DNA of 49,447 nucleotides from Holosporales bacterium (lineage in GTDB: Bacteria > Pseudomonadota > Alphaproteobacteria > UBA3830 > JAIRWN01): NCBI GenBank assembly GCA_031268985.1, contig JAIRWN010000014.1:1-49447 (forward strand). Direction: 5' to 3'. Below the pieces are notes generated by a model. It made no database searches, was not told the DNA's origin, and saw nothing but the letters and a program-made list of their open reading frames with translations. Positions 7,595-9,984 of this stretch are shown piece after piece. Position numbers and translations under genes: made by a program. Each line of letters begins with the position of its first letter. Positions within the stretch are counted from its first letter, which is position 1.

Positions 7595-8299
7595 TTAAAA
7601 GTTATAAATCATCATCGCGCGAATCTCAAACTTGCTGGTTCCGATAGTTATTTCATAATCTTCCTCGATTTTATTTTTCTTCTCTTTCTTAAACACATAT
7701 AAGACATCCCCTCTCGCGCTCCAATTATCGCCAAACTTATAACTGCAACCCATGCCAATACGGAAAGGAGTAAAACTTTCAGATTCAGAGTTAGAAAGTC
7801 TCGTTTTTTTATTTGCCTCAAAGCATTCCGAACTGGCGCCATGGTTTTCGAGCCCAATAAGACCATATAAAAGGGTAGGAGCGTTATCAAAATAATAACC
7901 TAATCTCAAAGAGCCGCCGATTGAAAGTGTCCGGATCTTCACAGTTAGCTTAGCTTCTTCCTCGCTCTTACTATCTTCGGCTGGATTTTTTACTCCAAAA
8001 TCCAGTTCTCCGCCAATATACACCCGGTTTTCCAGCGTTTGTCCAAAACCAGCCACTAAAACAGCTCCGAAAGGCTTAGGGCTAAATTTATGTGATACAT
8101 CATCACCTCGTAATTCAACAGAACAAAAGTCAAAACCAACGCCGCCTCCGACAAAAAAACCTGAAAAACCGTTATTGTCCTCAGAAGCTGCAGCTTCTTG
8201 CTCAGAAGTCTTTCCGACTTCAGTTGCAAAGCATTTATTTGTTCCTTCTACAACAAGCCCAACAGACAACAATGCTGACAATACAAATTTTCTGTTCAT
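7595..8299 (-). CDS. Outer-membrane beta-barrel protein (porin/OMP_b-brl family), copy 1
   Basis: Signal peptide, FSGFFVGGGVG first strand, alternating hydrophobic strands, C-terminal YNF beta-signal. Confidence 0.82.
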   Translation of the reverse strand: MNRKFVLSALLSVGLVVEGTNKCFATEVGKTSEQEAAASEDNNGFSGFFVGGGVGFDFCSVELRGDDVSHKFSPKPFGAVLVAGFGQTLENRVYIGGELDFGVKNPAEDSKSEEEAKLTVKIRTLSIGGSLRLGYYFDNAPTLLYGLIGLENHGASSECFEANKKTRLSNSESESFTPFRIGMGCSYKFGDNWSARGDVLYVFKKEKKNKIEEDYEITIGTSKFEIRAMMIYNF

Positions 8300-8329: not shown

Positions 8330-8360
8330 AAGATACCCCCCCCCCCCCTCCGTTTTGCAA
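8330..8360 (-). promoter_or_regulatory. Putative sigma70 promoter with G13 tract in the spacer (OMP copy 1)
   Basis: Minus strand reads TTGCAA-aacgga-G13-TATCTT, a 19 nt spacer. The C13 run on + is 8336-8348. The -10 box lies 30 nt upstream of the ATG. Confidence 0.7.
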
Positions 8361-8420
8361 GACATTACGACTAATTTGTTGTGTTATTAAACAGCGGCGT
8401 GATTTTTGGGTAACATTAAA

Positions 8421-8567
8421 TTTTTGGACGGTCAGCAATTATTCTCATTGTCCTCAGTCGATCAAGCAATAGCCGCTATAGGCAAAGTCTCGGAAAAATC
8501 TAAGAACAGCAAGTTTAGACAGAAATTAAAAAATTCGGCATTTAAATATACGCTAAACCGATCATAA
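8421..8567 (+). pseudogene. Diverged duplicate of the topA 3' end
   Basis: Translates FLDGQQLFSLSSVDQAIAAIGKVSEKSK..., versus the topA C-terminus SLDYTQLFSLYSIDQAVAIMSEVIKKPK (7388-7492). No start codon. Confidence 0.8.
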
Positions 8568-8584
8568 TGACCGATACAATTTTG

Positions 8585-8620
8585 AAAACAAAAAAGGCAA
8601 CCGAGAAAACCGGCTGCCTT
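8585..8620 (-). terminator. Intrinsic terminator of OMP copy 2
   Basis: Minus strand AAGGCAGCCG-gttttct-CGGTTGCCTT followed by TTTTGTTTT, just downstream of the stop at 8644. Confidence 0.7.
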
Positions 8621-8643
8621 CAAAACCAGAGACGAAAAGTCGA

Positions 8644-9369
8644 TTATAATGAAAAATTGTAAAGCGCCATCGCGCGAATCTCAAACTTACCGGCTTCAAC
8701 TTTGGTCGAAACTTTTGAAATATTAAGTGACTTTTCTTTCTTAAATGCGTACAAAACATCTCCTCTCGCGCTCCAGTTATCGTCAAACTTATAATTGCAA
8801 CCGGCACCAAGACGGAAAGAAGTAAAACTCTCGGATCCAGAACCAGACACCTCAGCAGATTTAGGACCAGATACATCTAGTGTGCCGCCGTAGTTTTCGA
8901 ACCCAACAAGTCCGTATGCAAGGAGAGGAGCATTATCAAAGCTATATCCCACTTTTAGGGAACCGCCGATAGAAAATACTCGAGCCTTCGAGCTCGTCTT
9001 CAGTTCCACAGACACATTTTTAATTTTGGGTTTAACAGTCTTTTCATCTTTAGACGGGCTTTTTATTCCGATATCCAGTTCTCCACCAACATACACCTGA
9101 TTTTCCAGCGTTTGTCCAAAACCAGCCACTAAAACAGCTCCGAAAGGCTTAGGACTAAAATCGATGGATACATATTCATTTTTTACTCCAACGGAATAAA
9201 AGTCAATACCGGCGCCGCCTCCGACAAAAAAACCTGAAAAACCATTATTGTCCTCAGAAGCTGCAGATTCTTGCCCGGAAGCCTCTTCGACTTCAGCCGC
9301 AAAACACTTATTCGTCTCTCCTGCAACAAGTCCAACAGTCAATAATGCCGGCAACATAAGTTTTTTCAT
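8644..9369 (-). CDS. Outer-membrane beta-barrel protein, copy 2 (paralog of 7595-8299)
   Basis: Shares SEDNNGFSGFFVGGG, FSPKPFGAVLVAGFGQTLEN, NWSARGDVLY and KFEIRAM with copy 1. Confidence 0.82.
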   Translation of the reverse strand: MKKLMLPALLTVGLVAGETNKCFAAEVEEASGQESAASEDNNGFSGFFVGGGAGIDFYSVGVKNEYVSIDFSPKPFGAVLVAGFGQTLENQVYVGGELDIGIKSPSKDEKTVKPKIKNVSVELKTSSKARVFSIGGSLKVGYSFDNAPLLAYGLVGFENYGGTLDVSGPKSAEVSGSGSESFTSFRLGAGCNYKFDDNWSARGDVLYAFKKEKSLNISKVSTKVEAGKFEIRAMALYNFSL

Positions 9370-9400
9370 AATTAAATCTCTCTAAAATCTACACGACTTG

Positions 9401-9429
9401 AATATACCCCCCCCCCCCCGTTCTACTAA
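9401..9429 (-). promoter_or_regulatory. Putative promoter with G13 tract in the spacer (OMP copy 2)
   Basis: Minus strand reads TTAGTA-gaac-G13-TATATT, a 17 nt spacer with a weak -35. The C13 run on + is 9407-9419. The -10 box lies 31 nt upstream of the ATG. Confidence 0.62.
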
Positions 9430-9603: not shown

Positions 9604-9984
9604 ATGCCCTTGTTGCACACAGTTAAGTCCCACAGAATTTTTTCCCAAGCTCGATACAGCGGAATATTTTATTCAACCAAATTTTTCGTCTTACAAGCGC
9701 TTAAATTTGATAATCCTAAACTTGACGATCGGTCTGTATCTTATATTGGATTGACGGTATCCAAGAAAATAGGCAATGCAGTAAAACGCAATCGTGTTAA
9801 AAGACGTCTGCGTGTGGCCAGCAAGCAAATTCTGGCTTCAAACGGCGTCGAAATGGTTGCTTATATATTTATTGCAAAATCTGCTATTGTTTGCGCTCCT
9901 TGGAGCGATTTAATTGAACAAACTATCGACGCGGTCAGCTTTGTAAACAGAAAAATTATGAGACCTGCCCCCACAGCATCATAG
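9604..9984 (+). CDS. rnpA: Ribonuclease P protein component
   Basis: IGLTVSKKIGNAVKRNRVKRRLR (RNR motif), 126 aa. Confidence 0.95.
   Translation: MPLLHTVKSHRIFSQARYSGIFYSTKFFVLQALKFDNPKLDDRSVSYIGLTVSKKIGNAVKRNRVKRRLRVASKQILASNGVEMVAYIFIAKSAIVCAPWSDLIEQTIDAVSFVNRKIMRPAPTAS

What the first reader, a model, noticed from the sequence alone, without database searches (positions are those of the whole stretch)
8330..9429. Poly-G spacer promoters on both OMP genes: candidate phase-variable surface-protein switch in an endosymbiont
Seen in sequence: the only long G/C homopolymers I found in the window are two C13 runs (8336-8348, 9407-9419). Each sits at an equivalent position, 37-38 nt upstream of an OMP start and directly abutting a -10 hexamer (TATCTT, TATATT). 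Copy 1 reads TTGCAA-19 nt-TATCTT (suboptimal; G11 would give 17 nt). Copy 2 reads TTAGTA-17 nt-TATATT. The tracts persist while flanking DNA has diverged. Established: slipped-strand changes of a poly-G tract between -35 and -10 tune Neisseria porA expression. Inference: each paralog switches independently, giving combinatorial surface states. I am not aware of this being described in Holosporales-like symbionts.
Basis: partly seen in the sequence, partly recalled or inferred. Interest (0 to 1): 0.85.

Follow-up and report, generated by a model that had tools for sequence, protein, structure and literature searches.

The report
Poly-G promoter switches on symbiont surface proteins
Two neighbouring outer-membrane protein genes of an uncultured Holosporales symbiont each have a slippery run of 13 G's inside their likely promoter, part of a genome-wide set of such runs, so the cell surface is probably varied at random by a trick well known from pathogens.

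Summary
Two 13-base G runs (C on the + strand, 8336-8348 and 9407-9419) each abut a -10-like hexamer about 30 nt upstream of a tandemly duplicated small outer-membrane beta-barrel gene. Chance does not explain them: 0.0001 runs of 13 or more are expected in the window.

- **Genome context:** this 858-kb Holosporales MAG has 39 G/C runs of 9-18 nt, against about 1 expected.
  - Ten sit in the 5' coding end of a second OMP family.
  - About eleven lie inside LPS or glycan genes.
- **Sister species:** one has G14 plus TATATT at the orthologous promoter. Another has only G5 in a 16-nt ordinary spacer.
- **Length variation:** run lengths differ between near-identical paralogs (12-16 G). One orthologous run is in frame in two species and out of frame in the third.
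- **Repair genes:** MutS and MutL are intact.

I read this as slipped-strand, promoter-spacer phase variation of the porA / tp0126 / Bordetella fim kind, in a lineage where I found no report of it.

Length variation within a population, the transcription start and the effect on expression could not be tested, because no reads were available. This scan has noted similar poly-G promoters in at least eight other genomes, none of them Holosporales.

The parts
7595..8299 (-). OMP copy 1: 234-aa small outer-membrane beta-barrel protein with an N-terminal signal peptide
   Evidence: ORF. Pfam PF13505 OMP_b-brl, E 3.3e-13. 60% identical to copy 2.
8330..8335 (-). -10-like hexamer TATCTT, directly abutting the tract, 30 nt before the ATG
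   Evidence: Read. G9-TATNTT match. T1, A2 and T6 are shared with copy 2 and both sister-species orthologs.
8336..8348 (-). G13 homopolymer (C13 on the + strand), the proposed slippage-prone promoter spacer of copy 1
   Evidence: Non-coding: all three frames are closed between tract and ATG.
8355..8360 (-). -35-like hexamer TTGCAA (4/6 to TTGACA), 19 nt from the -10-like hexamer
   Evidence: Read. It aligns with TTGCGA in G001 and TCGCAA in G002. Not listed by the consensus scan.
8406..8567 (+). Remnant of the 3' end of topA, a scar showing that the OMP gene was duplicated together with the end of the convergent topA
   Evidence: BLASTP against TopA residues 766-792: 15/27 identical, E 5e-7. 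Direct-repeat period 1052-1073 nt.
8593..8621 (-). Intrinsic-terminator-like hairpin (12-bp stem plus T run) just after the stop of copy 2. It separates the two transcription units.
8644..9369 (-). OMP copy 2: 241-aa small outer-membrane beta-barrel protein, the positional ortholog (next to rnpA) of the single gene in sister species
   Evidence: ORF. Pfam PF13505, E 4.6e-14. AlphaFold2 barrel model with pLDDT 74.5. Foldseek neighbours are Ail, OmpA-TM, NspA, OpcA, OmpX, OprG and OmpW. Synteny with rnpA in G001 and G002.
9401..9406 (-). -10-like hexamer TATATT abutting the tract, 31 nt before the ATG
   Evidence: The identical hexamer follows G14 in the G002 ortholog.
9407..9419 (-). G13 homopolymer (C13 on the + strand), the proposed slippage-prone promoter spacer of copy 2
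9424..9429 (-). -35-like hexamer TTAGTA (3/6 to TTGACA), 17 nt from the -10-like hexamer
   Evidence: Read. Aligned with the TTGCAA of copy 1. A weak match, not listed.
9604..9984 (+). rnpA (RNase P protein), the divergent neighbour. It is the synteny anchor that identifies copy 2 as the ancestral position.
   Evidence: Pfam PF00825, E 1.5e-15. The same neighbour is present in G001 and G002.

Best explanation
Each of the two tandem OMP genes is transcribed from its own sigma-70-type promoter. The gap between a weak -35-like hexamer and a -10-like hexamer is filled mostly by a run of 13 G's. Slipped-strand mispairing during replication adds or removes single G's at a high, reversible rate. That changes the spacer length (now 19 nt for copy 1 and 17 nt for copy 2) and therefore promoter strength. 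The two tracts slip independently, so a clonal population would contain cells with different amounts of each OMP.

On the assembled lengths, copy 2 is predicted high and copy 1 low.

The pair is the transcriptional arm of a genome-wide set of about 39 poly-G contingency loci. The rest act mostly by frameshifting inside genes for a second OMP family and for LPS or surface-glycan modification.

Shown: the anatomy, the conservation, the between-species and between-paralog length differences, and the genome-wide excess.

Inferred: the transcription start, the role of the -35 hexamers, slippage within a population, and any effect on expression.
For: **Anatomy**
- G13 abuts TATCTT or TATATT, 30-31 nt before the ATG.
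- All three frames are closed between tract and ATG.
- Copy 2 has its own terminator.

**Not chance**
- 0.00013 runs of 13 or more are expected in the window.
- 0 of 100 shuffles contain G9-TATNTT.

**Conservation across an old duplication and across species**
- The paralogs are 60% identical as protein.
- The 5'UTR is 21/34 identical while the tract is 13/13.
- The G002 ortholog reads TCGCAA, 18 nt including G14, TATATT, 29 nt, ATG.
- The G001 ortholog reads TTGCGA, 16 nt with only G5, TAGATT, 27 nt, ATG. So an ordinary promoter sits exactly where the tract promoters are.

**Genome context**
- G/C run lengths are bimodal: 51, 13 and 2 runs of 6, 7 and 8 nt, then 39 runs of 9-18 nt. A/T runs stop at 10 nt. 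About 1.16 runs of 9 or more are expected.
- Ten tracts lie in the 5' coding end of an OMP_b-brl-like family.
- About eleven lie inside WaaA, LptD, MBOAT, methyltransferase, epimerase, acetyltransferase, formyltransferase and similar genes.

**Evidence of slippage**
- OMP-family copies whose flanks are at least 90% identical carry 13, 14, 15 and 16 G, or 12 and 14 G.
- The orthologous tract in a methyltransferase is G10 (in frame) in G000 and G002, and G12 (stop directly after the tract, reading resumes in another frame) in G001.
- A PglD-like gene has G11 against G16.

**Not a repair defect**
- MutS and MutL are intact.

**Recurring architecture**
- G9-TANNNT occurs 29 times in 41 related genomes, against 8 for the mirrored control.

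**Precedent**
- tp0126 (an OmpW homolog) and porA have poly-G between -35 and -10, with 17 nt optimal (passages of PMC7864442).
- Bordetella fim2, fim3 and fimX have C-stretch promoters (passages of PMC1891110).
Against: - No within-population data exist. No sequencing run was listed, no relative was found in the metagenome contigs, and every protein cluster looked up holds only this MAG's own sequences.
- The transcription start is unknown.
- The -35 hexamers are poor (4/6 and 3/6), and the consensus scan lists neither promoter. The tract may space the -10 from something other than a -35.
- Both tracts are assembled at the same length (13). That is uninformative about independent switching, and short-read assembly may have miscounted.
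- Some long G runs in the sister MAGs look like sequencing artefacts. Examples are G59, C82 at a contig start, and G17-x-G8-x-G10 at a contig end. Tract counts in the relatives are therefore upper bounds.
- Several tracts lie in housekeeping-type genes (waaA, lptD, the priA stop), which fits a general mutational tendency as well as selection.
Confidence: 0.6

Rival explanations
1. This is still a slippage-driven transcriptional switch, but not through -35/-10 spacing. The tract would set the distance or helical phase between the -10 element and an upstream activator site or UP-like element, as in the Bordetella fim promoters. Alternatively the G run itself would act as a -35-less, extended-10-like context.
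For: The -35-like hexamers are weak (3-4 of 6), and the consensus scan lists neither promoter. The inferred spacers differ (19, 17 and 18 nt) among copies that all keep long tracts. [quoted passage not shown]
Against: A TTGC(A/G)A-like hexamer aligns in 3 of 4 genus copies at 16-19 nt from the -10. The G001 promoter without a long tract looks like a plain 16-nt sigma-70 promoter. I did not look for an activator or its site.
Confidence: 0.17
2. The tracts are a mutational by-product of this lineage, a tendency to generate and expand G runs. They have no regulatory role at the OMP genes, and their place in the promoters is tolerated rather than selected.
For: Tract-rich and tract-poor genomes are scattered through the order: 0 to 80 tracts of 9 or more per genome in 41 genomes. 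Tracts also occur in housekeeping-type genes and in intergenic spots with no obvious target.
Against: Long homopolymers decay quickly without selection. Yet the tract is kept at the same promoter position in both old paralogs and in a sister species whose flanks are only about 60-70% identical. Tracts concentrate in OMP and glycan genes. At least 11 intragenic tracts outside the OMP family keep the reading frame open. MutS and MutL are intact.
Confidence: 0.15
3. This is an assembly or sequencing artefact: poly-G from two-colour chemistry, or a mis-assembled homopolymer.
For: The genome is a short-read MAG. Sister MAGs contain obviously artefactual runs at or near contig ends, such as C82 at a contig start and G17-x-G8-x-G10 at a contig end.
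Against: Both tracts lie deep inside a 49-kb contig with unique sequence on both sides. An independent MAG of another species has G14 at the orthologous site. Intragenic tracts preserve reading frames. The longest run in G000 is 18 nt.
Confidence: 0.03

Closest known systems
Treponema pallidum tp0126 (OmpW homolog) and tprE/G/J/L poly-G promoters
   Same: A poly-G tract upstream of genes for outer-membrane beta-barrel proteins in a reduced-genome, host-dependent bacterium. For tp0126 the tract lies between -35 and -10, and transcription is best when the spacer is 17 nt. Several paralogous OMP genes each have their own tract. Many poly-G tracts are spread over the genome and vary in vivo (passages of PMC7864442). 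OmpW and OprG are among the fold neighbours of the protein here.
   Different: It is a spirochaete, not an alphaproteobacterium. Its tracts are shorter (7-11 G against 13-14 G here). Variation and length dependence were shown experimentally there and not here. No sequence homology between the proteins was shown: no PDB hit better than E 0.03 by sequence.
Neisseria meningitidis porA (poly-G in the -35/-10 spacer) and opc (poly-C at the -35)
   Same: A homopolymer in the core promoter of a surface OMP gene, giving graded or on/off transcription by spacer length (passage in PMC7864442; the original papers are recalled, not read). OpcA and NspA are structural neighbours of the protein here.
   Different: It is a betaproteobacterial mucosal pathogen. 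PorA is a 16-strand trimeric porin, not a small barrel. From recall, the porA tract is 9-11 G. No experimental data exist here.
Bordetella pertussis / bronchiseptica fim2, fim3, fimX 'C-stretch' promoters
   Same: Paralogous surface-protein genes each carry their own long homopolymer (up to C19) just upstream of the -10. Each paralog therefore switches independently and the population shows combinations of serotypes (passages of PMC1891110).
   Different: These are fimbrial subunits, not OMPs. The tract spaces a BvgA activator region from the -10 rather than a -35. They are not tandem duplicates.
Campylobacter jejuni poly-G phasome
   Same: Dozens of poly-G/C tracts of 9 nt or more per small genome, mostly intragenic (translational) with a minority intergenic, concentrated in surface-glycan modification genes. 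The median is 20 tracts per C. jejuni genome (passages of PMC6321876), against 39 in 0.86 Mb here.
   Different: From recall, Campylobacter lacks a MutL/MutH-type mismatch repair system. MutS and MutL are intact here. A multi-copy OMP family is the largest tract-bearing class here. This organism is uncultured and nothing has been measured.

Membership tests
Promoter-spacer homopolymer phase variation (porA / tp0126 type) | A homopolymer of about 8 nt or more lies between the -35 and -10 elements of the gene's promoter | tested here: inconclusive
   -10-like hexamers (TATCTT, TATATT) abut both tracts, 30-31 nt before the ATG. They are conserved in 4 of 4 genus copies. The -35-like hexamers match only 4/6 and 3/6, and the consensus scan lists neither promoter. 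The transcription start is unmapped.
Promoter-spacer homopolymer phase variation (porA / tp0126 type) | Tract length varies at high frequency within a clonal population | not testable with these tools
   No sequencing run was listed. No relative was found in the metagenome contigs. All nine protein clusters found hold only this MAG's own sequences. The only indirect evidence is 13, 13, 14 and 5 G among genus copies.
Promoter-spacer homopolymer phase variation (porA / tp0126 type) | Transcription depends on tract length | not testable with these tools
   No RNA data are available. The prediction rests on spacer length alone: 17 nt for copy 2, 19 nt for copy 1.
Promoter-spacer homopolymer phase variation (porA / tp0126 type) | The tract is outside the coding region, so the mechanism is transcriptional and not frameshifting | tested here: met
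   All three reading frames between tract and ATG contain stops in both copies.
Promoter-spacer homopolymer phase variation (porA / tp0126 type) | The regulated gene encodes a surface-exposed product | tested here: met
   PF13505 OMP_b-brl. Signal peptide read. Barrel model with pLDDT 74.5, with Ail, OmpA, NspA, OpcA and OmpW as neighbours.
Genome-wide simple-sequence contingency loci (phasome) | Long repeats are over-represented relative to composition | tested here: met
   39 G/C runs of 9 nt or more against 1.16 expected. The length distribution is bimodal. A/T runs stop at 10 nt.
Genome-wide simple-sequence contingency loci (phasome) | Tracts concentrate in genes for surface structures | tested here: met
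   Of the 39 tracts, 10 are in the 5' end of an OMP family, 2 in OMP promoters and about 11 in LPS or glycan-type genes. No formal enrichment test was run.
Genome-wide simple-sequence contingency loci (phasome) | Orthologous or paralogous tracts differ in length and in ON/OFF state | tested here: met
   Methyltransferase tract: G10 ON in G000 and G002, G12 OFF in G001. OMP-family paralogs with at least 90% identical flanks carry 12-16 G, 2 of 10 out of frame.

The most novel reading that the evidence does not exclude
A whole genus of reduced-genome Holosporales (about 0.9 Mb) keeps, under selection and with mismatch repair intact, a poly-G 'phasome' roughly four times denser per megabase than that of Campylobacter jejuni. 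It would combine three arms:
- promoter-tract control of a duplicated small OMP;
- a roughly 10-copy OMP family switched by a 5' coding tract that sits behind two overlapping start codons in different frames;
- frameshift switches in LPS and surface-glycan modification genes.

If so, these supposedly sheltered symbionts face strong, fluctuating, surface-directed selection from host defence or phages. Stochastic surface variation would then be a core part of their lifestyle.
Probability: 0.45. Interest if true: 0.6.

Novelty: new member of a known kind. Interest (0 to 1): 0.47.

Why it matters
Phase variation through hypermutable repeats is treated as a hallmark of mucosal pathogens that face adaptive immunity or phages. 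A dense, conserved set of poly-G switches on OMPs and glycan genes in uncultured Holosporales with genomes under 1 Mb would change how these bacteria are viewed.

- They would be under strong, changing surface-directed selection. That bears on how they are transmitted and how hosts or phages control them.
- Genome reduction would not have removed this evolvability device, even with mismatch repair retained.

There is also a practical point. The tracts flag which surface proteins matter at the host interface. They also warn annotators that 'frameshifted pseudogenes' in these MAGs may be switchable genes.

Tried and rejected
**Searches that returned nothing**
- Read-level test of tract length: the look-up of sequencing runs listed no run, and no RNA holder was listed. 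Read laying was therefore never used.
- Strain-level variation: the metagenome-contig scan with the OMP alignment found 528 pattern matches, none a relative.
- Exact look-up of 10 proteins: 9 were in the collection and 1 was not. All nine clusters hold only this MAG's own records.
- Genome contigs gave only the G002 ortholog and one irrelevant weak hit.
- Earlier notes of this scan on look-alike stretches: none.

**RNA explanations**
- Rfam at E up to 1 gave only a chance snoRNA hit.
- Folding tract plus 5'UTR as RNA is no better than shuffles, with z of -0.77 and -0.11.

**Translational switching of the two OMPs**
- Rejected, because all frames are closed.
- In G002 an ATG directly before G14 happens to be in frame with the gene. 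I regard this as coincidence.

**Other checks**
- The tract acting on the divergent rnpA is unlikely, because it lies 184 nt from the rnpA start.
- Loss of mismatch repair as the cause is rejected.
- Naming the OMP more precisely failed. NCBIfam hits fell below the cut-offs, and the best PDB sequence search hit was E 0.03.
- The third weak paralog (C8:41498-42148) and 16 more distant homolog loci carry no G/C run of 7 or more nearby. The promoter tract is therefore confined to this genus among the genomes searched.
- blastn mapping of sister-species tract flanks onto G000 mostly failed at about 70% identity. tblastn anchors were used instead.

**Not consulted**
- Supplementary files of the cited papers were not consulted.
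Full report
**1. The observation**

The + strand carries C13 at 8336-8348 and at 9407-9419. Both genes run on the - strand, so each tract is G13 on the coding strand.

- Copy 1 (7595-8299, 234 aa): TTGCAA, 19 nt (6 nt + G13), TATCTT, 30 nt, ATG.
- Copy 2 (8644-9369, 241 aa): TTAGTA, 17 nt (4 nt + G13), TATATT, 31 nt, ATG.

These are the only G/C runs of 8 nt or more in the window. With the genome's composition (42.4% GC), 0.00013 runs of 13 or more are expected in the window and 0.0023 in the whole assembly. G9-TATNTT occurs twice in the window and in none of 100 dinucleotide-preserving shuffles.

**2. The genes**

Both proteins match Pfam OMP_b-brl (PF13505; E 3e-13 and 5e-14) and are 60% identical. 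They begin with a typical signal peptide.

An AlphaFold2 model of copy 2, built from a four-sequence alignment, is an all-beta barrel after residue 45 (pLDDT 74.5, pTM 0.67). Its Foldseek neighbours in the PDB are the small barrels Ail, OmpA-TM, NspA, OpcA, OmpX, OprG and OmpW. E values run from 1e-8 to 1e-5, and target-normalised TM-scores reach 0.68. No NCBIfam model reaches its cut-off, and the best PDB match by sequence has E 0.03. The fold class is clear; no finer family can be named.

**3. Origin of the pair**

The two genes are a tandem duplication with a period of 1052-1073 nt. The unit took along the 3' end of the convergent topA. A remnant at 8406-8567 matches TopA residues 766-792, 15/27 identical, E 5e-7. 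TopA and RnpA were confirmed by Pfam.

Copy 2 lies next to the divergent rnpA, as does the single ortholog in two sister species. Copy 2 is therefore the ancestral position.

The duplication is old. The N-terminal coding part is 82% identical in DNA. The 34 nt between tract and ATG are 21/34 identical, counted by hand on the copies printed. The tract itself is 13/13.

A 12-bp-stem terminator follows the stop of copy 2 at 8621-8593, so copy 1 needs its own promoter.

**4. Is the tract in a promoter?**

- All three frames between the tract and the ATG are closed in both copies. The tract cannot act by frameshifting.
- Nothing in Rfam matches. The tract plus 5'UTR does not fold better than shuffles as RNA.
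- Comparison within the genus is the most useful evidence:
  - G002: TCGCAA, 18 nt including G14, TATATT, 29 nt, ATG.
  - G001: TTGCGA, 16 nt of ordinary sequence with only G5, TAGATT, 27 nt, ATG.
- All four copies therefore share a hexamer with T1, A2 and T6 at 27-31 nt from the ATG. Three of four share a TTGC(A/G)A-like hexamer 16-19 nt upstream.
- In one species the same promoter exists without a long tract.
- Against this, the -35-like hexamers are weak (4/6 and 3/6 in G000), and a plain consensus scan lists neither promoter. The transcription start is unknown.

**5. Genome context**

The window is one whole contig of an 858,482-bp, 41-contig assembly, 91.5% complete. The tool titled a same-genus record 'MAG: Holosporales bacterium'.

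*Run lengths.* G/C run lengths are bimodal. There are 376, 51, 13 and 2 runs of 5, 6, 7 and 8 nt, then 8, 8, 4, 5, 4, 5, 2, 1, 1 and 1 runs of 9 to 18 nt. That is 39 runs of 9 or more against 1.16 expected. A/T runs end at 10 nt.

*Where the runs lie, classified against ORFs and Pfam:*
- Ten tracts (G12-G18) lie at about codon 8 of a repeated family of roughly 300-aa proteins. This family has a weak OMP_b-brl match (E 1e-3 to 4e-6).
- Two are the promoter tracts studied here.
- About eleven lie inside genes of LPS or surface-glycan type:
  - WaaA and LptD;
  - an MBOAT acyltransferase;
  - two methyltransferases and two epimerase/dehydratases;
  - a PglD-like acetyltransferase and a formyltransferase;
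  - a racemase and a PEP-utilising enzyme.
- The rest are in a symporter, genes of unknown function, or intergenic DNA.

*Strand and frame.* Almost all genic tracts are G on the sense strand. At least 11 intragenic tracts outside the family leave a long ORF open. That argues against random insertion artefacts.

*Related genomes.* The excess is shared by the genus: 38 and 49 tracts in G001 and G002. It is patchy in the order, from 0 to 80 per genome, with 35 of 41 genomes having at least one. Some long runs in the relatives are clearly artefacts, so those counts are upper bounds.

*Repair genes.* MutS and MutL are intact in G000 and found in 40 of 41 genomes each.

**6. Evidence that the tracts change length**

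- OMP-family copies whose 45 + 60 nt flanks are at least 90% identical carry 13, 14, 15 and 16 G in one group, and 12 and 14 G in another.
- In that family the tract follows two overlapping ATGs in different frames. Lengths of 2 mod 3 and 0 mod 3 each put one ATG in frame, and only 1 mod 3 is off. Eight of ten copies are in frame with a start and two are off.
- A methyltransferase has the tract at the same codon in three species. It is G10 and open in G000 and G002. In G001 it is G12, with a stop directly after the tract and reading resuming in another frame.
- A PglD-like gene has G11 against G16, both open.
- One gene of unknown function has its tract at different sites in different species.
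- At the OMP promoter the lengths are 13, 13, 14 and 5.

All of this is between-copy or between-species variation. No within-population data could be obtained.

**7. Mechanism and rivals**

I put the best reading at about 0.6. It is slipped-strand change of spacer length in two independent sigma-70-type promoters, giving graded or on/off and combinatorial expression of two OMP paralogs. On the assembled lengths, copy 2 (17 nt) is predicted strong and copy 1 (19 nt) weak.

| Reading | Confidence |
|---|---|
| Spacer-length switch in two independent sigma-70-type promoters | 0.60 |
| Same switch, but the tract spaces the -10 from an activator or other upstream element, as in Bordetella fim | 0.17 |
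| Lineage-specific mutational by-product with no regulatory role | 0.15 |
| Assembly or sequencing artefact | 0.03 |

- **By-product:** retention of the tract across an old duplication and across species, and its concentration in surface genes, count against it.
- **Artefact:** the independent G14 in another MAG and the unique flanks deep inside a 49-kb contig count against it.
- **Support for a recurring architecture:** G9-TANNNT occurs 29 times in the 41 related genomes, against 8 for the mirrored control.

**8. Comparison with known systems**

- **T. pallidum tp0126.** The closest match in mechanism and gene type. It is an OmpW homolog with poly-G between -35 and -10 and 17 nt optimal. The tpr genes are similar (passages of PMC7864442).
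- **N. meningitidis porA and opc.** Also close (same passages).
- **Bordetella fim2, fim3 and fimX.** The closest match for paralogs that each have their own tract (passages of PMC1891110).
- **C. jejuni.** The closest match for the genome-wide picture, with a median of 20 tracts per genome (passages of PMC6321876). Here there are 39 in half the genome size.
- **Bartonella krasnovii.** This alphaproteobacterium has 13 other G/C runs of 9 or more, in addition to its badE repeat tracts (passage of PMC11466379).
- **Haemophilus influenzae lic1.** The two-ATG design of the OMP family resembles it, from recall only.

Membership in the porA/tp0126 class cannot be completed. Location outside the coding region and a surface product are met. 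The -35/-10 placement is inconclusive. Hypermutability and length-dependent expression are untestable here.

**9. Novelty**

Full-text searches found no report of phase variation or homopolymer switches in this group. The searches were:
- Holosporales or Holospora with 'phase variation';
- Holosporales with 'homopolymer';
- symbiont, poly-G and contingency terms;
- Rickettsiales with homopolymeric and slipped-strand terms.

The few papers holding both words were judged from their listed titles and abstract starts only, and none concerns this topic. Supplements were not consulted.

The mechanism itself is well known. This scan has already noted poly-G promoter spacers in at least eight other genomes, none of them Holosporales. 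I therefore class the finding as a new member of a known kind. The added interest is that it belongs to a dense, conserved phasome in a reduced-genome symbiont lineage with intact mismatch repair.

From recall, such genes are poly-G-switched in Campylobacter. I did not test whether the cassette here carries a tract.

Noticed in passing
G000 contigs C2:43330, C12:68, C12:12142, C14:31943, C16:454, C16:16537, C17:13115, C19:5363, C28:140, C34:12610 (not in the window): A family of about 10 copies of roughly 300-aa OMP_b-brl-like genes. Each has G12-G18 at about codon 8, behind two overlapping ATGs in different frames (ATGAATGGG). Two of the three length classes are therefore in frame. Contigs often break at these copies. 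The family also occurs in G001 (8 matches), G002 (3) and G003 (3), and G001 copies have tracts upstream of the matched part.
   Followed up: partly
G000 C19:24251 (methyltransferase-like, 254 aa); orthologs in L054 (G002) and L094 (G001): An orthologous intragenic tract at the same codon in three species. It is G10 and open in two, and G12 and frameshifted in the third. This is a textbook ON/OFF signature.
   Followed up: yes
G000 C25:14993-15003: G11 (C11 on the + strand) sits where a 140-aa ORF and a 503-aa ORF in different frames meet. A one-base length change would fuse them into one protein of about 640 aa with no Pfam match, so this is probably a gene caught in the OFF state.
   Followed up: partly
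G000 C37:9120-9138: C9-A-G9, a perfect 9-bp G:C palindrome made of two homopolymers, 154 nt downstream of an ORF. It could be a hairpin terminator or a double slippage site.
   Followed up: no
G000 C14:7501 (WaaA), C15:6825 (LptD), C37:99036 (priA stop codon): G9-G13 tracts inside or at the end of genes usually considered essential, all currently in frame. This may mean tolerated poly-Gly or rescue by transcriptional slippage.
   Followed up: no
G002 L045 (G59), G002 contig C10 end (G17-x-G8-x-G10), G001 L091 (C82 at a contig start): Very long or contig-terminal G runs in the sister MAGs look like two-colour-chemistry poly-G artefacts. Tract counts in public MAGs need filtering.
   Followed up: partly
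Order-level relatives G009, G025, G030, G035 versus G004, G007, G010, G011, G019, G033: The number of G/C tracts of 9 nt or more ranges from 0 to 80 among 41 Holosporales genomes of similar size, without loss of MutS or MutL. The trait is patchy, and gained or lost repeatedly.
   Followed up: partly
window 8406-8567: A decayed copy of the last ~30 codons of topA lies between the two OMP genes and dates the duplication.
   Followed up: yes
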